From: Octopus vulgaris
Taxonomy: Eukaryota
Reading direction: 5' to 3'
Assembly (NCBI GenBank): GCA_951406725.2
Contig: OX597839.1
Coordinates: 5,084,001 to 5,148,000, forward strand
DNA: 64,000 bases
The notes beneath the pieces are model-generated. The model ran no database searches and was not told where the DNA came from. It saw only the letters and a list, made by a program, of their open reading frames with translations. Both the position numbers and the translations under genes were made by a program. Below, in pieces: positions 6,046 to 60,579 of this stretch (position 1 is the first letter of the stretch; each line of letters starts with the position of its first letter).

Positions 6046-6082
<37 letters not shown>

Positions 6083-6086
<4 letters not shown>

Positions 6087-6566
6087 TAAATTAGAGATAA
6101 AACCACTATTAGGCAAATCAAACAATGAAAATCTTAAGCCAATACATAAAATTAATTAATTTATATTATTTTAAATATATATCAAAATTATTAAACGTTT
6201 AATAAAAGATAATGAGTAAAACACTACGATCATTTCATGGCTGTCCAATTCGTAATAATTCGAGTTATGGTTACTGAAGATTGACTGTAACCATAACTCG
6301 AATTATTACGAATTGGACCGCCATGAAACGATCGTAGTGTTTTACTCATTATCTTTTATTAAACTTTTAATAATTTTGATATATATTTAAAATAATATAA
6401 ATTAATTAATTTTATGTATTGGCTTAAGATTTTCATTGTTTGATTTGCCTAATAGTGGTTTTATCTCTAATTTAATATGATATAATATTTTACTATAAAA
6501 TTGGATTCAATCCTAAATCTGAATTTTCCCTGTAAGTTTGGATTTATTCCCTAATATTTTATTATA
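6083..6566. mobile_element. Fold-back element (192-bp arms, 12-nt loop, one-sided tail) with a degenerate HHR
   Basis: 6083-6274 is the reverse complement of 6287-6478; CTGAAGA at 6274-6280 and GAAACGATCGTA at 6325-6336; tail motif TTTGGATTT..TTCCCT recurs near 13845 and (reverse) near 25045; (TA)n on both sides. Confidence 0.75.
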
Positions 6567-6887
6567 TATATATATATATATATATAATATCTTGGAGCTT
6601 TGACATTTCACTGTTGTGGTAGTTTATTTTTATAATGACATTGTAGAATAGTTGTGAAGGTCCAGATCTGCCCACTTTGAACATGTAGCAAATATAATAT
6701 TTTAGCTAGTTTTGGCCGATTTAAATGTTAAAGGGTTCGGAAAAACATGAAAAATATGGATGATTGTAAGATTTGACCGGAAACCTTGCGCAATGCAATT
6801 GTTTTCTATAAGAATGTAAGTCCACAGAAACTACAGACATACACGAGGGGAAAAGATTAAAAAGGCAGATACACAGACACTTATTTG

Positions 6888-7320: not shown

Positions 7321-7669
7321 TTCATCAAAAACAATTAAGATTAAAAATAATTCAAATGAATTCAAATGAATATGGTACTTAACTTAGATGCATCAAGATT
7401 CTCTATGGTATTAACCATAAAATTATCTGGGGTGATTATAACCATGGAAAAAGCAACAAGAATGGATCGGTAGATTAGTACCATTGTTTCATACTAAAAA
7501 CATTTAACTTAATATTACAGCAAATAAGAATATATAGAAAACCTATATGTGATTTAGCTGATGAATACTTGACATTATATTTGCTGTAATATTTGCAGCT
7601 TGAAATTAAATGTTTTTAGTATGAAACAATTGTACTAATCTACCGATCCATTCTTTTGCTTTTTTCTTA

Positions 7670-7673
<4 letters not shown>
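7321..7673. mobile_element. Fold-back HHR element, family H1
   Basis: About 7449-7527 is inverted to about 7578-7665; the tail 7350-7445 is the reverse complement of tails at 21135-21222 and 32672-32762; (TA)n-flanked. Confidence 0.75.
7551..7640 (+). ncRNA. Type I hammerhead ribozyme, canonical core, short palindromic stem III
   Basis: TTAG-CTGATGA-ATACT-(48 nt)-AGTAT-GAAAC-AATT-GTA-CTAA; stem I TTAG/CTAA, stem II ATACT/AGTAT; predicted cleavage after 7634. Confidence 0.75.
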
Positions 7674-7717
<44 letters not shown>

Positions 7718-7729
7718 CATTCTTTTAAA

Positions 7730-7860
7730 TGTTTACTTGTTTCAGTCATTTGACTGCAGCCATGCTGGAGCACTGCCTTAAATGGATTTAGTCAAAGAAA
7801 TCTACCGCAGGAATTTATTCTTTGTAAGCCTACTACTTATTCTATGGGTCTCTTTTGCCG
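7730..7860 (-). mobile_element. SINE family C, 3' end
   Basis: TACTTGTTTCAGTCATTTGACTGC.GCCATGCTGGAGCAC is the reverse complement of about 58638-58678. Confidence 0.75.
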
Positions 7861-12428: not shown

Positions 12429-12912
12429 AGGCTTAACTGTGTGAGAAGAAGCTTGCTTCCCAACTACTTGGCTCCGGGTTCAGTCCTACTGGTGGGACCT
12501 TGAGCAAGTGTATTTTACTCTAGTCTCCTGCCAACCAGATCCTTCAGTGGATTTGGTAGAGGGAAACTGAAAGAAGCCTGTAGTATATATTGAAAATTTT
12601 TGTATTAATGGAAAACCTCTATAATTGGCTCATGAGTACTCAACATATTAAATCTGTTGTAATACTTACAACATTTAATAAAATGATGTAGTACGAAACG
12701 ATCGTACCAAATTACCGGAATCATTCTTGTTGCTTATTTTGATATATATATATATATATAAATATGTATGTGTGTGTGGGGGTGGGGATTGGTGTGTCTT
12801 TGCATTTTTGTTTCTCCCCCACCACCGCTTGACACTCCAATGTAGGAGTGTTTGCAACATCGTAACTTAGCGGTTCGAGAGAAGAGACTAGTAGAATAAG
12901 TACGTGGGTTAA
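12429..12912 (+). mobile_element. SINE family C, split at its internal (TA)n by an H1 element
   Basis: 5' half at 12429-12590 and 3' half at about 12786-12912 (CGTAACTTAGCGGTTCG..AGAATAAGTAC). Confidence 0.75.
12625..12710 (+). ncRNA. Hammerhead ribozyme, family H1, with core mutation G5C (probably inactive)
   Basis: TTGG-CTCATGA-GTACT-(49 nt)-AGTAC-GAAAC-GATC-GTA-CCAA; all stems pair. Confidence 0.7.
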
Positions 12913-14330: not shown

Positions 14331-14794
14331 GAAGCTGGCTACCCGCATGGTTCTTGGTCTCAAGCATTTGTCTTATGAAGAAAGGCTGAAGACGCTCGAT
14401 CTTTATTCTCTAGAAAAACGACGACGCTGTGGTGATCTCATTCTCGCTCACAACATCATAAGCGGAAAGTGTAACCTCTCGAAAGAGCTGTTCTTCACTC
14501 CTGCTCCAGAGCGTCGGCTGTGGGGTCACTCCGAAAAGCTCTATCTGCGACGATTTCATCTCAATCGAAGGAGAGGAGCTTTCTCCGTCCGGGTTGCGGA
14601 TCCGTGAAATAAGCTGCCGGACAAGATAGTGAAGATGCCGACGACCGCTCGGTTCAAAGTCTCTCTTGACCAGAAATGGCCTGAACTCTTTGCATGAACA
14701 CCCGCCCTGTACATAACTCCATGTCCCCCTATATGGCCTTGCTTTTTGCTTTTTGAGCCAAAAAAATTAACTTAACTTAACTTAACTTAACTTA
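14331..14794 (+). mobile_element. CR1-group LINE 3' fragment
   Basis: ORF 14347-14607 LKHLSYEERLKTLDLYSLEKRR..GDLI...GH..KL...FSVRV..*NKLP is a typical CR1 ORF2 C-terminus; (TTAAC)n tail at 14767-14794. Confidence 0.88.
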
Positions 14795-17759: not shown

Positions 17760-19283
17760 ATAGTGAGCGCAGGGGTCGATGATGTTATACAATATAGTGA
17801 TTGTTAATTTCAAATCTGTTGTTTATCTGTCTATGAGGATTGCCTCTTAATTCTTAAATTTTCTAAATTTTTGTCATTCACCTCAATTGTGACTGTTATG
17901 TTTTTGTCGATGTTCCAGCATCTGTCAAGATGTTTTCTGAAGGAGCAAGCTCGTGTGTTTAGATGTTCTTTGATGCGAATGTGTAAGGGGTCTTGTGCTA
18001 TCCACATAGAAATTCTTGCATTTGTTACATTGTATTCTATACTCAACATTTACCCGTTGGCATAAATCTGTGTCACGAATGGGGTAGTTACTTAGTGGGC
18101 ATTCATTGCTGTACCTTGCTCGATTCTTTGCTAGGTGTCATCTCAAAGAGGGGCCGGATTGCGCTAGTTGTATGTCTAGTCCTTCTCTTAGTGGCTCTTT
18201 GGATGGCGGTAGTTATCCTCTCGCTAAAATGGGGTATTTTAAGGAAGCATGTATTGCTGGGTCTTCTGTGTTTGGTGTGTTTGTCGTCTGTTACTTAAGC
18301 TGATTCACAATACCTCTGGGAAACGTGTGATGTGGGTCGCTTTGCCCACTGTCCTGCTGCACTTGCTCTTGATGCGTATAAGTTCATTTCTAGCGTATCC
18401 TATTTTGGCACCGAGTACAAGGGCTGAATTGTAGTGAACAAACATATCTCTACAGGCTGATTTCCTGTAGAACTCGGTGTGAATCTCTCCTTCTCCCATT
18501 ATTTTCAGTTGGAAGTCGAGCAGCGATAGGGATCCAGTGTTGTCGGGATGTTCTATAGTGAACTGTATGTTCATGTCCATGTTGTTGAATGTCGTGAATA
18601 TTATGTCAGCCTCTTCACGAGAGGATGTGACTTTGAGGATGTTATCTACGTACCTGGAGAAGAAGGCGCATGATTGGCGGATGTTGAGTGCTTGACGTTC
18701 CCGATGGTTCATATAGGTGATGGCCAATAGACTCGAGAGACGGGATCCAATGGGGACACCTGTTGTCTGCTTGTAGGTGTGATCATGGAAAGAGAGGTAG
18801 GTGTTGTCCACGATGATGGACAATAGTTGATGCATATCAGCTGCGGTGAGTTCGAAGCAGTGGATATCGGACGCTACCATGCCGTCAGTCAATAGGTTGA
18901 TCGCTGAGTGTGCTGGTACCGTTGTGTACTTTGAGACAACGTCAAGACTAAAGGTATAGCTGTTTTGCCTGGGTTGGTCTGGGGGCAGTTGGCGGATTCT
19001 TTTGATGACTTCGTGGGAGTTCTTGACGTGTCCAGGAAAGGTGGAGAGCACGGGTTTCAGATATTTTATATGGAGGCCTCTCAACACTTGAGACGATGAG
19101 TCTAATCTGGATCGTGTCGCTATCCTTGTGTGTCTTAATGAGGTGGCAGAATCTGGGTTATCTATTTTTCTTTGTGATGAAGTTGGTCTTGTATTTGTTA
19201 TGTAGTTGTCTCCGTCTACAAATGTCAGTCCAGCTGTAAATTCTGTCTTCAAGCCTGGTCGCGGTCGTATCTGTCACTTCAGA
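17760..19283 (-). mobile_element. Decayed Penelope-like retroelement (RT + GIY-YIG endonuclease)
   Basis: ORF 18305-19252 has SLDVVSKYTTVP, YKQTTGVPIGSRLS, RYVDNI (YVDD mutated), IQFTIE, LSLLDF and FYRK; downstream ORF 17831-18049 has LHIRIKEH, a GIY-YIG-type RxKEH motif; frames are broken. Confidence 0.9.
18305..19252 (-). pseudogene. Penelope-type reverse transcriptase fragment
   Basis: RT motifs as above; catalytic YVDD reads YVDN; premature stop at 18305. Confidence 0.85.
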
Positions 19284-20226: not shown

Positions 20227-20441
20227 TATAATATGTATATATATATAATATAATATATAATATATATAAGATATATATAAGATATATATACATATAATAT
20301 ATATAATATATATAATATATAATATATACATATAATATATATAATATATGATATATATAATATATAATATATATATATATACTCTCTTTTCTCTATTTTA
20401 CTTGTTTCAGTCATTTGACTGTGGCCATGCTGGAGCACTAC

Positions 20442-20488
<47 letters not shown>

Positions 20489-20691
20489 TAAGCAACAAGT
20501 ATATCTTAGGTAATTTCGTACAATCGTTTCATTCTACTTCATTTTATTAATTACGGAGATGTACTCGCATAGCAAGTGATTTGATCTGAGATCGTGTGCT
20601 GGAACGAAAAGAATTGCAGCGTGGAAGGTGTTTGTAAGCCATTTAAGAAACACACAAAAGCCGTTCGATTCACTTCAACATTTAAGTTTAA

Positions 20692-20741
20692 TTTGTCAAA
20701 ATATTTTCGTCGCTATAATCCGCGACCTGTTCACTGACAAA
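20692..20741 (-). ncRNA. Hammerhead ribozyme variant (G3-C8 core), minus-strand copy
   Basis: Reverse complement: TTTGTCA-GTGAACA-G-GTCGC-GGATTATA-GCGAC-GAAA-ATAT-TT-TGACAAA. Confidence 0.65.
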
Positions 20742-20760
20742 AATCCATGCTGCACGGATT

Positions 20761-20810
20761 TTTGTCAGTGAACAGGTCGCAGATTTTAGCGACGAAAATA
20801 TTTTGACAAA
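20761..20810 (+). ncRNA. Hammerhead ribozyme variant (G3-C8 core), plus-strand copy
   Basis: TTTGTCA-GTGAACA-G-GTCGC-AGATTTTA-GCGAC-GAAA-ATAT-TT-TGACAAA; 7-bp stem I, 5-bp stem II; predicted cleavage after 20803. Confidence 0.65.
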
Positions 20811-21023
20811 TTAAACTTAAATGTTGAAGTGGATCGAACGGCTTTTGTGTGTTTCTTAAATGGCTTACAAACACCTTCCACGCTGCAATTGTTTTCATTT
20901 TATTAAACATTGTTAATATTACATCAGTTTTAAAATGTTGAGCAATCTTCAGCCATTTATACTGTTGGCAAACGAAATGGAAATAAGAATATGTATTGTC
21001 CGTTTGAAGGAAGACTTCTATAA

Positions 21024-21109
21024 ATGGCTGAAGATTGCTCAACATTTTAAAACTGATGTAATACTTACAATGTTTAATAAAATGAAGTAGCATGAAACGA
21101 TTGTAGCAA
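21024..21109 (+). ncRNA. Degenerate H1 hammerhead
   Basis: ATGG-CTGAAGA-TTGCT-(long loop)-AGCAT-GAAAC-GATT-GTA-GCAA; core intact, stems partly decayed. Confidence 0.55.
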
Positions 21110-21217
21110 ATTACCTAAGATATACTTGTTGCTTATTTTGATTATAATCACCCCATGGATTTATATGGATAATACCATACAAAATTCTGGTGCCTCTGAC
21201 TTAAGTACCATATTTAT

Positions 21218-21264
<47 letters not shown>

Positions 21265-32200: not shown

Positions 32201-32637
32201 AGAGAGTGAGAGAGAGAGAGAACGAGAGACCCACTTACACATATATGCTCGTACCTGTTTTGCCCATATATATGCGTGTGTGCTTGTGTGTATACATCTA
32301 AATATATTCCTACGTGTCCGCATCCTATTAACACTAATATCTGACTAATCGAATCATATGATCACTTGTCACTGATTTGGTGTGAAGACATCCGCGTGGA
32401 ATCCATGTTTGATTGTCGTCTACACATATTTTTCCTTGCACATTTATATGTTCTGTGTGTGGACTCTATCATGAGCGTATAAGTTTCTACAAGTCCAACG
32501 ATTAATCTACACATCCACAGACACACACGCAAACAAGCATATATAAGCAGTACCTATTCACATGATCTCAGATCAAGTCACTCGCTTTGCAAGTACATCT
32601 CCCTATATATATACATATATATACATATATATATATA

Positions 32638-32778
32638 ATAAAAATAAGCAACAAGGATATTCTTGTAGCTTATTTTCATTATAATCACCCCATTTTGAAT
32701 TATACGGATAACACCATACTAAATTCTGGTACCTTTAACTAAAGTACCATATTCAACTGAATCTACATTTTACTGAAC
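32638..32778 (+). mobile_element. Minimal H1 element (short hairpin plus tail, ribozyme lost)
   Basis: AAAATAAGCAACAAG/CTTGTAGCTTATTTT hairpin, then ATTATAATCACCCC..ACCATAC.AAATTCTGGT..AAGTACCATATT as at 21141-21214. Confidence 0.7.
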
Positions 32779-32967
32779 TTATATATAAACAAGGGTACAC
32801 AATATCACAAACATTGCTAGAAATAGGACTAAAAAACAACTCGAGTCCAATGGTGGTACTATTTTGTACTGTTTTTTATCCTTGTTTATTAATTTGCCTA
32901 TATATTTGCCTTGTATATATATATATATATATACAATATTAAATAATGTATATATATATATACACAT

Positions 32968-33675
32968 ACATGCATATATGGATACAGGATATCACCAACG
33001 GTTCAAACAACAGGAAACAAACGAGTTAAATACGTACTCAACGAGAAGAAAATGGAAAACAGGACAAGTAAACACAGAGAAAGGACCCTTCATCAGTCGT
33101 CGGCTGTCTATCTTCTCATTTCGAGCATTCAACGACAATATGAGTCTTCAAAGAGAGTTGCTTCCATAAATTCTAAAATAAAATTTAGGAACAAAAACAT
33201 GACAGTAGATACATATAAGGTAACCGAACGAAAACAAACATGGATGCTCGTTAGATTAGAGCGAGAGGAATATAGTGAACGCCGTGGAGAAATATTTGTT
33301 TGAAAAGAGAAAAGCTAGAATAGAGAGAAAAATGTCCGTTCTTTTGAACGTCCGTACAGGAAAAGAAAGACAGTTACGTGAAGAAAAGAAAGACGGACGT
33401 CGGTCACGTTTGAGCAATGAGTGAGAGGGAGAGGGAAATGGATGCGTAGCGTTCAATTGAATATTAACTATTAAATCTCTATAGAATTTACGAAGCAACT
33501 GACTTTGAAGACTTATATTATCGTTGAATCCTCGAAATCAGGAGTAGATAGACAGCCGACAACTCATGAAGGGTTCTTTCTCTGTGTTTACTTGTCTTGT
33601 CCTCCATTTTCTCGTTGTTTACGTATTTCATGTTGCTTGAACCGTTGGTGACGTCCTGTACCATACATACATGTG
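32968..33675. mobile_element. Diverged fold-back element (about 200-bp arms, about 300-bp spacer)
   Basis: TACAGGATATCACCAACGGTTCAA / TTGAACCGTTGGTGACGTCCTGTA and GTCGGCTGTCTATCT / AGATAGACAGCCGAC are inverted; TA-flanked. Confidence 0.7.
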
Positions 33676-33757
33676 CGTGTCTATATATATATATATAGTA
33701 TATATAAGATGTAATATATACTATTTAATTGAACGCGACGCATCCATTTCCAAGTAG

Positions 33758-43709: not shown

Positions 43710-45572
43710 TATACACACACACACATAGGTTCCACGTATCTATGTACATGTACGTAAATATGTGTATGTATATACACAAACATATTTATGTATGCATACA
43801 TATATATATGTATATATATGTGTGTATATATATATATATATATGTGTGTGTATATATATATATATATATACATACACATACATACATACGCATGTGTGTG
43901 TGTTTGCGAGTGTATGTTTCGTATGTGAGTGCTTGTGCGTGCGTGCATGTGTGTGAGTGTGTGTGTGCGTAACCTGAAGGACGAAGTACTCTGTAATTTA
44001 TATGAGTTAGCATATTAACGACAGAAATCGCGCACACACAAACATAAACACGCACACACTCGGTACAGGCACACACTCACACACACTCACACACACACAC
44101 ACACACATATTCAAACGTACATATATAGATATATCTATGCACATATATGTATGTATGTATATATGTATATATATGTGTATTTGTGTATGTATGTGCATAT
44201 TTACGTGTGTGTATGTGTGTATACAAACGTACCCACCTGTGTGGGCGAGAGCCTGCGTTAATACGTTAACATAATTGCAGAGCACCTTTTTTTTCTCATC
44301 TTCAGTATATGTGTGCGTGTGTGTGTTTATGTGTGTGTATGTTCATGTGCGTGTGTACGTGAGTGCACAAGTGGGTGTGTGTATTCATTTACATATATAA
44401 ATATGCATAAATATATGTATACATGTACCTATACATATGTACATATGAATGCGCGTATATATATATATAATATATGAATATGTATTTTTATGTATATATA
44501 TGAATGAATATATATGTATGTATATATATAGATGTGTGTATATATATCTATATATATATATATATATATATACATATTTATTTGTTTTGCGTGAGTGTGT
44601 ACGCCCATGTTATATATATATGTGCGTATGTAGGCTTGTATACGCATGTATACACACACTTGCTTGAGACACAGAAGGAGATCGGAAAACAATGAACAAG
44701 ACAGACTTTAGCAGCCATATATCAAAGATGTATAATTATAAATATTTTCATATTAACACACACTCACGCAACCTTATCTACGCAATTATATTCACAACCG
44801 CACTGACGTCCCTCTATTTACATGTATGTTTAAATTAATTAAAGAGTACTGATATATATTTATATCCTGTTTTAATTTACTTTTTTATAATGTCATATAT
44901 TCTTTATAGAAAAGATGCAGAAGAAAATATTAAGCTAATGCAAATAATGAACTGTTTCTACCGAGTTTCGAACTCGTAATAACACCGTACCATACTACAA
45001 GAATAAATTCGTTGCTGTCCAATACAATACCTTGATCTTTATTTTCGGTTGTATCAGAAAATAGAATGAGAGCTGAAACAAACATACGTGTCTGCCGTTT
45101 CGTCAAAAATAAATGGGTGTGTGATTTAAGAGGCTTGCCTTGCCAACGTTTTGTTCCGAGTTCAGTCCCACTGCACGGCAACTTGAGCAAGGGCAATTGG
45201 ATTTTAGTGATAAAAGCTTGTACAACGGTTTCGCCGCTTTGTTATCCCAGCTTCTAGCGACACCATAGCAGGGTCCACTGATAAGCTTTGTAACATGACT
45301 GGATCCTATTTTTTGCGAGTCTTTGTGTTCAGGCTTGTCCCACCTGAATCCCTGACAAACCGTATTGGTATTGTGTACGTCCCCGAAACGAAGACCTTCC
45401 ATTTAATACTCCGAGAAAATGAGTACCAAACTTTAAAAAGGTATTAGTATTCTAATAATGCCTGAAAAATCTCTTTAAGTCGCAGTCTCTATCTCATTCT
45501 GGTTCTTTCACTCTCCTTCTCAATCTCTCTGACTCTCTGTCTTTCTAGTCACTCAAACAAATACAACACACA

Positions 45573-45638
<66 letters not shown>

Positions 45639-45712
45639 CTGCCCCATTTCATCTCACCCGATACTATATATACCAGCATCCATGGATCAGAAAAGGTACA
45701 AATTTACTTCGC

Positions 45713-45744
<32 letters not shown>

Positions 45745-45746
45745 GT

Positions 45747-46097
45747 ATTCCACGGATTCCATGGACAGCGAGGCTCACCAATGAAGAAGTTCTTAAGCAG
45801 ATCAGGCCGAAATTGTCGCTAGAAGCTAGGATCACCAAGCATAGATTGGCATATTTCGGTCATATTATGCGGAGAAAATCCATGGAGAAGGACATCATGC
45901 ATGCTCGGAATGGTCAGTGGCAAGAGAGGAAGAGGACAACGAAGAACCCGCTGGCTTGACACCATCAAGAGTGATACCGGAATGGACATAGCCAATCTGA
46001 AAGAAGCGGCCCAGGATAGAACTGACTGGAGGACACTGATCCAACGAGTGACCGGGAGTCGACTTCGACTGAGCGGATAGATAGATAGATAGATAGA
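45747..46097 (+). mobile_element. RTE-clade LINE 3' fragment
   Basis: IPWTARLTNEEVL..RLAYFGHIMRR..EKDIM, frameshift, then GMVSGKRRRGQRRTRWLDTIK..EAAQDRTDWR..RVTGSRLRLSG*; (ATAG)n tail. Confidence 0.9.
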
Positions 46098-53280: not shown

Positions 53281-53366
53281 ATCACAAGAATTATATATAA
53301 TTCACAAGAATAACACAAGAATATATAATATATAATATATAGAATATATAATATATAATTCACAAG

Positions 53367-53416
53367 AATAATCACAAGAATAACAATTAGTATTGAATAA
53401 TCACATGCACTTGTGC

Positions 53417-53454
<38 letters not shown>

Positions 53455-53504
53455 GCACAAGTGCATGTGATTATTCAATACTAATTGTTATTCTTGTGAT
53501 TATT
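53367..53504. repeat. Perfect 138-bp palindrome centred on (TA)n
   Basis: 53367-53419 is the exact reverse complement of 53452-53504. Confidence 0.9.
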
Positions 53505-53741
53505 TTTTATCGATTTTTTTAATGGAATCCATGCTATTTGGGTATTTTTGTTTTGTCTCGTCACATTTGCAATTGGTGTTCGATGAAGTACCAACAACAA
53601 GATTGACAACAACAAAACAACAAAACAACAAAACAACAACAATGTCAATAATAAACGCACAAACACTCGTATAGAAACACCCTACACGTATACGCACCCA
53701 GTTGCATATCAGAACCTGTTTTAGTTCTCCTACCCCTCCTG

Positions 53742-59835: not shown

Positions 59836-60216
59836 TGGAGGTGCAATGGCCCAGTGGTTAGGGCAGCAGACTCGCGGTCATAAGATCGCGGTTTCGATTC
59901 CCAGACCGGGCGTTGTGAGTGTTTATTGAGCGAAAACACCTAAAGCTCCACGAGGCTCCGGCAGTGGGTGGTGATCCCTGCTGTACTCTTTCACCACACC
60001 TTTCTCTCACTCTTTCTTCCTGTTTCTGTTGTACCTGTATTTCAAAGGGCCGGCCTTGTCACTCTCTGTGTCACGCTGAATATCCCCGAGAACTACGTTA
60101 AGGGTACACGTGTCTGTGGAGTGCTCAGCCACTTACACGTTAATTTCACGAGCAGGCTGTTCCGTTGATTCGGATCAACCGGAACCCTCGTCGTCGTAAC
60201 CGACGGAGTGCTTCCA
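59836..60216 (+). mobile_element. SINE family A with 14-bp TSD
   Basis: TSD TATTGTTGTTGCTG at 59822-59835 and 60217-60230. Confidence 0.9.
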
Positions 60217-60245
60217 TATTGTTGTTGCTGCTGCTGTTGCTGTTG

Positions 60246-60579
60246 CGCGAAGCGGTCTCCGTCCGTAGTGGGAGAAGTCCGATACGTGGTCCTTTGCTAT
60301 TCGTAAGACCCGCAGAAGAGAAAGCAGGTCAACCCCCGAAACCGAGAGCATTCAGGCTCAGCGGCTGCGTAGTAAGTCGGGGACAAGTAACAGGAAGAAA
60401 GAGTGAGAGAAAGTTAGCGGGAAAGAGTAAAACAGGGGTCGCCACCACCCCCTGCCGGAGCCTCATGGTGCTTTAGGTGTTTTTGCTCAATAAACACACA
60501 CAACGCCCGGTCTGGGAATCCAAACCGCGATCCTCCGACCGCGAGCCCGTTGCCCTAACCACTGGGCCATTGAGCCTCC
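60246..60579 (-). mobile_element. SINE family A2, full length
   Basis: Same head as family A for about 190 nt, then a different 3' half shared with 7982-8150. Confidence 0.85.

What the first reader, a model, noticed from the sequence alone, without database searches (positions are those of the whole stretch)
20482..21222. One ribozyme fold-back element inserted into loop II of another, with a 13-bp TSD
Seen: removing 20551-20893 and one copy of TTCATTTTATTAA restores the left arm of the H1 element as the mirror of 21021-21143. The break lies inside loop II of its minus-strand hammerhead. Inference: the hairpin-plus-tail unit inserted as one piece, and a TSD of this length fits target-primed retrotransposition better than a cut-and-paste MITE. 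This is the best local evidence that these palindromes are mobile units rather than assembly artefacts.
Basis: partly seen in the sequence, partly recalled or inferred. Interest (0 to 1): 0.7.

Follow-up and report, generated by a model that had tools for sequence, protein, structure and literature searches.

The report
Nested Penelope retrotransposon stumps in octopus
A short mirror-image piece from the end of one Penelope-type jumping gene landed inside a similar piece of another, which is known behaviour for these elements; the unusual point is that the inner one carries a hammerhead-shaped RNA in which two core letters are swapped throughout a very large family.

Summary
The nesting is real: removing 20551-20906 restores H1's left arm (122 of 128 matches to its right arm). 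Two details need correcting. The break lies in the 3' strand of H1's extended helix II, not in its terminal loop. The 13-nt repeat includes junction microhomology, so the duplication is 8-13 nt. H2 is the end of a Penelope-like element (PLE). Its minus strand carries a minimal type I hammerhead fold, then the first 31 codons of an Octopus ORF (28 of 31 identical to XP_029654200.2) whose relatives continue into PLE-type RT motifs; the tail-less arm stops at codon 12. Contigs from three public runs show fixed unit ends, varied AT-rich flanks, solo monomers and varied centres, so the mirror arm is probably built at insertion rather than copied whole. Inverted pLTR, tail, 8-10-bp TSD and PLE-in-PLE nesting are published (PMC3846280). 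Possibly new: H2's core has G3-C8 in place of C3-G8 across the family; I found no natural report, but a key paper was unavailable and cleavage is untested. No long reads or empty-site allele were seen. This scan noted similar PLE palindromes (shark) and a G3:C8 core on other DNA.

The parts
20445..20481 (.). (TA)n left of H1 (target microsatellite)
   Evidence: sequence
20478..20550 (-). H1 left arm, outer part (holds stem I 3', N17, stem III, GAAA and the basal 3' strand of helix II of the minus-strand hammerhead)
   Evidence: mirror of 21074-21146, 4 mismatches in 73
20538..20550 (+). target-site duplication, left copy (13 nt maximum; 20541-20548 unambiguous)
20551..20602 (-). H2 tail: about codons 14-31 of the partner ORF; outer end is a fixed family boundary
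   Evidence: tblastn of P0006 to 20642-20550, 28 of 31; loose ends before 20550 in X2 (62 contigs) and X3 (29)
20550..20642 (-). first 31 codons of a PLE-type ORF (ATG at 20642)
20603..20750 (-). H2 left arm (sense pLTR on the minus strand)
20692..20741 (-). H2 hammerhead-like motif: 7-bp stem I, core GUGAACA (G3-C8) at 20734-20728, extra G, 5-bp stem II, GAA, palindromic 6-nt stem III, U17 at 20699
   Evidence: (z -3.2)
20748..20754 (.). 7-nt palindrome at the centre, shared by both arms; 20754 is the fixed 5' end of the unit
   Evidence: loose ends behind 20754 in X1 (50 contigs) and X2 (59)
20752..20899 (+). H2 right arm (inverted pLTR without tail); codons 1-12 at 20860-20895; element-derived for certain to 20893
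20761..20810 (+). H2 hammerhead-like motif, second copy; core at 20768-20774, U17 at 20803
   Evidence: (z -3.1)
20894..20906 (+). target-site duplication, right copy; first 3 nt also fit the element (5 of the first 6)
20907..20961 (-). H1 left arm, inner part (rest of helix II, core CUGAAGA at 20952-20946, stem I 5')
   Evidence: 2 mismatches in 55 to 21019-21073
20962..21018 (+). H1 centre: unpaired stretch, probably the longer 5' part of the right-hand copy
   Evidence: low but non-zero depth in X1-X3; reading is inference
21019..21146 (+). H1 right arm with intact-length hammerhead-like motif 21020-21113 (core 21028-21034, helix II 21035-21093, GAA 21094-21096, stem III 21097-21104, A17 21105); stem I and stem III carry private lesions
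   Evidence: family letters at 21102 and 21106
21147..21221 (+). H1 tail (about 75 nt), also present in copies at 7361 and 32656
21222..21260 (.). (TA)n right of H1
   Evidence: sequence

Best explanation
Both units are short terminal pieces ('stumps') of endonuclease-containing Penelope-like retroelements in an Octopus genome. H1 inserted first, into (TA)n. Later a different PLE family (H2) nicked the AT-rich 3' strand of H1's helix II with a staggered cut of up to 13 nt. Both freed target 3' ends primed reverse transcription on uncleaved H2 RNA, at two internal start sites inside the ORF start: codon 31 (gives the tail) and about codon 12-13 (no tail), helped by 1-5 nt of microhomology. Both cDNAs ran to the fixed 5' end of the roughly 204-nt unit and were joined head to head through its 7-nt terminal palindrome; gap filling gave the TSD. 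SHOWN: nesting, duplication, arm and tail anatomy, hammerhead-shaped folds, link to the ORF start, fixed ends with many flanks, varied centres. INFERRED: that the ORF is a PLE RT-endonuclease (RT motifs seen in gene models, endonuclease not seen), the two-primer step (by analogy with the anole PLE in vitro), and any ribozyme activity. About 0.9 for PLE origin of H2, 0.75 for H1, 0.6 for the two-primer step.
For: ORF link: phmmer of the 30-aa peptide against 1.84 billion representatives gave 2 hits; one is P0005 (O. bimaculoides, residues 1-25, 84%, E 3.4e-4). P0006 (O. sinensis) matches 20642-20550 at 28 of 31 and the right arm at 12 of 12. P0005 and P0006 overlap P0007 and P0009 (O. vulgaris; 81% over half of P0005; alignment). 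P0009 carries PKF, RWR, DKS, PLYGL-x-KDHK, RPVCG and DVVSLY, like the PLE motifs in PMC8557442. Atlas neighbours of P0007 score 0.96-0.97, mostly rotifer. Published anatomy agrees: in Pen2a the pLTR holds the first 12 codons, the tail extends this to 22, the inverted pLTR overlaps the direct one, TSDs are 8-10 bp, and it is nested in Pen3 (PMC3846280). The anole PLE cuts and extends both strands at AT-rich DNA from two internal sites that define the tail, using uncleaved RNA (PMC11167929). Family data: 21,626, 15,209 and 6,392 contigs laid in X1, X2, X3; loose ends with agreement 0.45-0.53 at 20550, 20754 and 20895; 7 of 15 shown joints link a variably cut copy to 20746-20754, some with filler bases. 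A hammerhead scan of the whole window gave 4 hits, all in H1 or H2, and 0 in 10 shuffles.
Against: No listed contig bridges either H1/H2 junction, none spans the stretch, and no 20550-to-20907 joint is among the 15 shown of 180; the best run holds 0.58 of the words. So this locus has no independent read support. The one raw-read run (X22) gave 12 reads, none on H2. Joints have sides of 21-48 nt at 85% likeness, and centre variants could partly be later deletions. P0007 has no Pfam hit and P0009 only two weak unrelated ones, no PDB hit, and the link to the RT runs through separate gene models, one of them (P0006) fused to a methyltransferase. No endonuclease was seen for the partner and no ORF partner was found for H1. 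The tail (52-57 nt; H1 about 75 nt) is longer than the published 30-40 nt. The anole study reports no homology at the start site, whereas short microhomology is seen here. TSD lengths across copies could not be surveyed (no genome held).
Confidence: 0.8

Rival explanations
1. Same PLE origin, but the mirror arm comes from one cDNA folding back on its terminal palindrome and copying itself (self-priming, as proposed in PMC3846280), not from a second target-primed cDNA.
For: A palindrome sits exactly at the centre; both arms share the same minority letters and the same 8-nt loop II variant against the family pool; proposed for rotifer PLEs.
Against: The 7-nt palindrome gives only a 2-bp fold-back stem; asymmetric centres with one side at the fixed 5' end (7 of 15 shown joints) and a preferred arm end near 20895 (49 contigs in X2) fit two independent cDNAs better; both strands are extended in vitro.
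Confidence: 0.3
2. One reading: a pre-formed hairpin-plus-tail master is transcribed and retroposed as one piece by a PLE enzyme.
For: The full-length centre is well covered in all three contig runs (depth at 20747-20751); arms share variants; this copy alone cannot exclude it.
Against: 13 of 15 shown joints are different centres, and solo monomers end at 20754; the three H1 hairpins in the window have different centres and a fourth copy is a monomer. A whole-hairpin RNA folds at -247 kcal/mol against -46 for the monomer, burying both hammerheads.
Confidence: 0.12
3. H2 is a MITE or fold-back DNA transposon moved by a transposase.
For: Long inverted repeats, no long ORF, a TSD, very high copy number.
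Against: A 52-nt tail lies outside the inverted repeat on one side only; the outer ends fall at codons 12 and 31 of an RT-linked ORF; monomers and cut arms exist.
Confidence: 0.03
4. Assembly or library fold-back artefact.
For: No read or contig was seen across this locus's junctions.
Against: Arms differ at 6 of 148 (H2) and 6 of 128 (H1) positions, which a chimera would not give; the insertion has a precise duplication; opposite-strand and centre joints recur in two or three independent runs.
Confidence: 0.03

Closest known systems
Endonuclease-containing PLE insertions with inverted pLTR and tail (Pen2a_Av nested in Pen3; Arkhipova et al. 2013, PMC3846280; passages and Discussion read)
   Same: About 200-nt pLTR holding the first 12 codons, tail extending the ORF start, inverted pLTR overlapping the direct one at a palindrome, TSD of 8-10 bp, microhomology junctions, nesting in another PLE, AT-rich targets.
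   Different: Here no ORF body is retained, only the two pLTR arms; tail 52-57 nt rather than 31; very high copy number (thousands of contigs per run).
Anolis Poseidon PLE (PAc; Frangieh et al. 2024, PMC11167929; main text parts 1-2 of 4 read)
   Same: Two internal RT start sites inside the ORF start define the tail; AT-rich cut sites; uncleaved RNA is the template; C3G/G8C double change partly keeps cleavage.
   Different: PAc has C3-G8 naturally and its ORF starts in stem II; H2 has G3-C8 and its ATG lies 57 nt after the predicted cleavage site; short microhomology seen here.
Minimal dimeric type I hammerheads of PLEs (Cervera and de la Pena 2014, PMC4209133; parts 1-2 of 4 read, 2 of 3 supplements searched)
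   Same: Type I, extra base between 9 and 10.1, G10.1-C11.1 pair, short palindromic helix III; pairs of motifs on opposite strands 100-700 bp apart were noted.
   Different: Reported core covariant is U3-A8; H2 has G3-C8. H1's helix II domain (58-59 nt) is much longer than the 7-8 bp described.
Hydra-clade PLEs (Craig et al. 2021, PMC8557442; passages, section 11, supplement parts 1-2 and search hits read)
   Same: H1 at this locus reads ATGG-CTGAAGAT-TGC...GCA-TGAA, like several Hydra motifs in File S2, and sits in (TA)n, their stated target; long loop II occurs in two plant PLE motifs there.
   Different: The listed Hydra-1_Obim hammerhead is neither H1 nor H2; no H1 ORF was found, so the clade is a resemblance only. 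The H2 partner mixes Hydra-like (RWR, KDHK) and other motifs (PKF, PLYGL, DKS); clade left open.
Non-LTR retrozymes (bioRxiv 10.64898/2026.07.22.740005; part 1 of 5 read)
   Same: Short, hammerhead-bearing, non-coding PLE derivatives.
   Different: Retrozymes are head-to-tail tandem arrays; H1 and H2 here are head-to-head pairs or monomers.

Membership tests
EN+ Penelope-like element insertion (H2) | pLTR holding a hammerhead-type motif and the first codons of the ORF | tested here: met
EN+ Penelope-like element insertion (H2) | Inverted, often 5'-cut copy joined at the 5' end | tested here: met
EN+ Penelope-like element insertion (H2) | Tail at one end only (30-40 nt in print) | tested here: met
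   present at one end, 52-57 nt, longer than published
EN+ Penelope-like element insertion (H2) | Partner ORF with PLE-type RT | tested here: inconclusive
   motifs up to RT motif A in P0009, 22% over 68 aa to the window's PLE RT at E 0.002, atlas 0.97; no RT hit in Pfam or PDB
EN+ Penelope-like element insertion (H2) | GIY-YIG endonuclease in the partner | not testable with these tools
   gene models end before it; no genome held
EN+ Penelope-like element insertion (H2) | Short TSD of variable length in AT-rich DNA | tested here: inconclusive
   8-13 nt at this one locus; AT-rich varied flanks; lengths across copies not surveyed
Canonical type I hammerhead (H2 motif) | Core CUGANGA | tested here: not met
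   core is GUGAACA in both arms and in 7 loose-end consensus rows from 3 of 3 contig runs; the 3-8 pair is kept by a double change, so filed as a covariant, not as canonical
Canonical type I hammerhead (H2 motif) | Stems I and II, GAAA, A15.1-U16.1, H17 | tested here: met
Canonical type I hammerhead (H1 and H2) | Rfam hammerhead model match | tested here: not met
   none among the 28 matches to E 10 in the region or the 150 shown of 513 in the window
Canonical type I hammerhead (H1 and H2) | Self-cleavage 3' of position 17 | not testable with these tools
   needs an in vitro assay
Type I hammerhead (H1 motif) | Core CUGANGA, stems I-III | tested here: met
   full motif in the copy at 7558, one core change in the copy at 12629; this locus has the core but lesions in stems I and III that the family pool lacks; 3 of 21 helix II pairs covary among 3 copies
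Hydra-clade PLE (H1) | ORF with RWK, DKT and CxCX5C linker | not tested
   no H1 ORF recovered; only the hammerhead signature and (TA)n flanks resemble
MITE / fold-back DNA transposon | Inverted repeats at both termini with fixed symmetric ends | tested here: not met
   tail outside one arm, monomers and cut arms
Non-LTR retrozyme | Head-to-tail tandem units | tested here: not met
   no tandem H1 or H2 in the window; not excluded elsewhere in the genome

The most novel reading that the evidence does not exclude
H2 is a natural, very high-copy PLE family whose hammerhead has fixed the G3-C8 swap, so far seen by me only as a laboratory rescue mutant, and it self-cleaves as a dimer through its palindromic stem III. 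Its fixed 5' end, about 55 nt before the cleavage site, marks a short SINE-like RNA that is mobilised in trans. With thousands of copies, its two outer ends, centres and TSDs would be a genome-scale record for testing two-ended priming in PLEs.
Probability: 0.4. Interest if true: 0.62.

Novelty: new variant of a known kind. Interest (0 to 1): 0.42.

Why it matters
The nesting itself is ordinary PLE behaviour. Two points go further. First, hammerhead searches use C3-G8 or U3-A8 cores, so a large G3-C8 family is invisible to them (Rfam missed it); a second-site pair kept across species argues for selection on catalysis although cleavage was dispensable for insertion in vitro. Second, how PLEs form inverted repeats and tails is still open (PMC8557442, PMC11167929); this family gives many natural insertions whose ends map to exact codons. 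It also means such palindromes in octopus repeat libraries should be classed as PLE, not MITE.

Tried and rejected
Own-genome survey: no genome held. Rfam: only microRNA-type hairpin matches, below gathering scores. H2 pattern scans: 1 match in metagenome contigs (L001), rejected as a chance match in bacterial-looking DNA with no further likeness; 0 in viral contigs; 0 in prokaryote genomes. P0009 against viral contigs: 16 pattern matches, none confirmed. P0004, the other phmmer hit, is a tandem-repeat peptide and was rejected. Atlas search with P0005 gave only 0.75. The PLE remnant at 17846-19273 was considered as H2's partner and rejected: 22% over 68 aa to P0009, and no H1 or H2 copy lies at its ends. 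Hydra-1_Obim rejected as partner: different ORF start and hammerhead. Candidate TSDs of other window copies are hidden in (TA)n or unclear. Searches for a natural G3-C8 core: and reads found only laboratory variants and natural U3-A8. Lunse et al. 2017 (PMC5785218) is not held, one supplement of PMC4209133 was not searchable, and the supplement of PMC13282606 was listed but not read; any of these, or Repbase and Dfam, may hold the family or the variant.

Full report
Observation. The region holds two nested inverted repeats between (TA)n runs. The inner unit, H2, has arms 20603-20750 and 20752-20899 (142 of 148 matches) and a one-sided extension at 20551-20602. A 13-nt direct repeat lies at 20538-20550 and 20894-20906; its only other occurrence in the window is the reverse complement at 21074. 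With 20551-20906 removed in a script, the left arm of the outer unit H1 matches its right arm at 122 of 128 positions without gaps. The chance of the 13-nt match at a fixed place is 3.4e-7. The nesting is therefore in the sequence and is not chance.

Two corrections. (1) A scan for type I hammerhead topology over both strands of the window gave 4 hits: both H2 arms and the H1 copies at 7558 and 12629; 10 shuffles gave none. Those copies show that H1's core lies 58-59 nt before GAAA and that the stretch between folds as one long helix II (3 of 21 pairs change on both sides among 3 copies). At this locus the core is 21028-21034 on the right arm. On the left arm the terminal loop mirrors to 20917-20919, and the duplicated 13-mer is positions 40-52 of 59, the 3' strand of the helix. 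The insertion splits the two half-cores but is not in the terminal loop. (2) H2's right arm mirrors its left arm for 6 nt into the right-hand repeat (5 of 6 match; 20894-20896 perfectly), and 20550 continues the element's reading frame. The unambiguous duplication is 8-10 nt; 13 nt is the maximum and is the physical overhang if the shared bases are priming microhomology (inference).

What H2 is. Each arm carries a 7-bp stem I, the core GUGAACA, one extra G, a 5-bp stem II, GAA, a 6-nt palindromic stem III and U17; both fold as drawn, with z -3.1 and -3.2. This is the minimal dimeric PLE hammerhead of PMC4209133 except that C3-G8 is G3-C8. On the minus strand an ATG at 20642 opens 30 codons to the end of the tail; 31 in 100 shuffles are also open, so openness alone means little. 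But phmmer against 1.84 billion representatives gave 2 hits, one a repeat peptide (rejected) and one the first 25 residues of an O. bimaculoides protein, P0005. Its relative P0006 (O. sinensis) matches 20642-20550 at 28 of 31 residues and the right arm, 20860-20895, at 12 of 12. P0005 and P0006 overlap O. vulgaris models P0007 and P0009, and P0009 continues through PKF, RWR, DKS, PLYGL-x-KDHK, RPVCG and DVVSLY, which resemble the pre-RT and RT motifs of PLEs in PMC8557442. Against this: no RT hit in Pfam or the PDB, no endonuclease in these truncated models, and P0006 is fused to a methyltransferase, probably a gene-model chimera. The atlas puts P0007 beside mostly rotifer clusters at 0.96-0.97. 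In the rotifer element Pen2a the pLTR holds the first 12 codons and the tail extends them to 22; it has an inverted pLTR overlapping the direct one, a 9-bp TSD, and is itself nested in Pen3 (PMC3846280). H2 repeats this plan: codon 12 at the tail-less end, codon 31 at the tail end. The host is an Octopus species by these hits and by the neighbouring RT's hits; the species is not established.

Family evidence. No genome was held. Of 24 runs listed, 20 hold part of the stretch, at best 0.58 of its words, under four coded organism labels and one marine metagenome. I laid 4 of them at 85% likeness. The raw run X22 gave 12 reads, none on H2, and says nothing. The contig runs X1, X2 and X3 (organisms A, B, C) gave 21,626, 15,209 and 6,392 pieces. 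Among the 20 loose-end rows shown (of 1,214): many contigs begin at 20550 (62 in X2, 29 in X3), end at 20754 (50 in X1, 59 in X2) or leave at 20895 (49 in X2), with flank agreement of only 0.45-0.53 and AT-rich consensus; the 20895 ends run on for about a dozen H2-like letters, so the second end varies somewhat. This shows a unit of about 204 nt with fixed ends at many loci, including monomers. Of 15 joints shown (of 180), 13 are alternative H2 centres; 7 join a copy cut at 20571, 20574, 20614, 20683, 20685, 20689 or 20700 to 20746-20754, some with filler bases. Sides are short (21-48 nt), so single joints are weak. Seven loose-end rows from all three contig runs contain the G3-C8 core, and no core position is among the 40 variable places shown (52 not shown). 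For H1, the pool corrects this copy's lesions: 21106 G>C in 97-98% of depth in all three runs (restores stem I), and 21102 T>C (84%, 19%, 24%) or 21099 G>A (7%, 39%, 34%), either of which restores the stem III palindrome; these are unphased, but the two window copies show the two palindromes. No listed piece bridges an H1/H2 junction and no empty-site joint is shown, so this locus lacks independent read support; contigs of repeats are short, so this is not evidence of absence.

What H1 is. Four copies lie in the window (7361-7675, 12610-12748, this one, 32634-32761): three hairpins with different centres and one monomer; three share the same tail of about 75 nt. This copy sits in (TA)n on both sides. 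Its motif reads ATGG-CTGAAGAT-TGC...GCA-TGAA, as do several Hydra-clade hammerheads in File S2 of PMC8557442, a clade that targets (TA)n. No ORF was found, so PLE origin is likely and the clade is a resemblance. Arm divergence is alike in H1 and H2 (6 of 128; 5 of 142), roughly 7 and 5 million years with wide, overlapping ranges if JC 0.09 equals 25 million years (PMC13282606); order comes from the nesting alone.

Mechanism. The anole PLE protein cuts and extends both strands of AT-rich DNA, starts at two internal RNA sites that bracket the tail, and uses uncleaved RNA (PMC11167929). Applied here (inference): a staggered cut of up to 13 nt in H1; the top-strand end primes at codon 31, the bottom-strand end near codon 12-13; both cDNAs reach the 5' end and join through the 7-nt palindrome at 20748-20754. 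Both arms keep sequence 5' of the predicted cleavage site, so the template was uncleaved. Asymmetric centres with one fixed side fit two cDNAs better than a fold-back of one, and better than later deletion or a hairpin master, but none of these is excluded.

Novelty. Architecture, TSD range and nesting are in print. Natural U3-A8 cores are reported (PMC3088659; PMC4209133). G3-C8 appeared only as a laboratory variant, with partial rescue in the anole ribozyme, and no core listed in File S2 has it. Five searches found no natural case, but the library lacks many journals and PMC5785218, the paper most likely to list such variants, is not held. A note on other DNA (e1-7353390) mentions a single G3:C8-like motif, unchecked. 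The octopus repeat paper mentions neither hammerheads nor palindromes in its main text (part 1 of 3 read, supplement not read). Papers seen only as passages: PMC6962438, PMC6765202, PMC3884650, PMC6155905.

Verdict. Real nested insertion of one PLE stump into another; known kind of event; a family-wide G3-C8 hammerhead core and a long-helix-II motif are modest, untested variants. Interest 0.42.

Noticed in passing
window 17846-19273 (-): 5'-cut, broken PLE with RT (Pfam RVT_1, E 1e-7) and GIY-YIG region, 57-75% to an O. bimaculoides model; not the partner of H2.
   Followed up: partly
window 6072-6567: Third hairpin family: arms of about 200 nt (195 of 199 match) plus a one-sided extension of about 75 nt, in (TA)n; carries a GAAA with the same 8-nt palindrome as H1's stem III but gave no full hammerhead hit.
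   Followed up: partly
window 32559-32761: An H2 tail-only stub (32559-32605) lies about 30 nt from a short H1 hairpin with tail, in the same AT microsatellite: a second H1/H2 neighbourhood.
   Followed up: partly
window 32924-33751: Older inverted repeat (79%) interrupted by about 300 nt, with a second short inverted pair at 33434-33483 / 33703-33751; possibly another nested case.
   Followed up: no
window 59837-60579: Inverted pair of about 190 nt (87%) around a 360-nt middle; the arms look like a SINE head (recalled resemblance).
   Followed up: no
window 53364-53507: Near-perfect (98.6%) mirror centred on a (TA)n run.
   Followed up: no
window 20380-20445: Dispersed repeat cut off by the (TA)n that holds H1; further copies at 7732, 23725, 35314 and 58631; the H1 copy at 7361-7675 also lies next to one.
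   Followed up: no
window 14332-14607 and 45549-45959: Short open frames resembling LINE RT C-terminal regions (recalled resemblance, not scanned).
   Followed up: no
P0006 (XP_029654200.2): Octopus gene model that fuses the H2 partner's N-terminal region to a methyltransferase domain; probably a mis-joined model, a true fusion is not excluded.
   Followed up: no
run X22: Listed under the same species label as X1, yet 0 reads on H2 in 1.9 Gb read; label or filter problem, unexplained.
   Followed up: no
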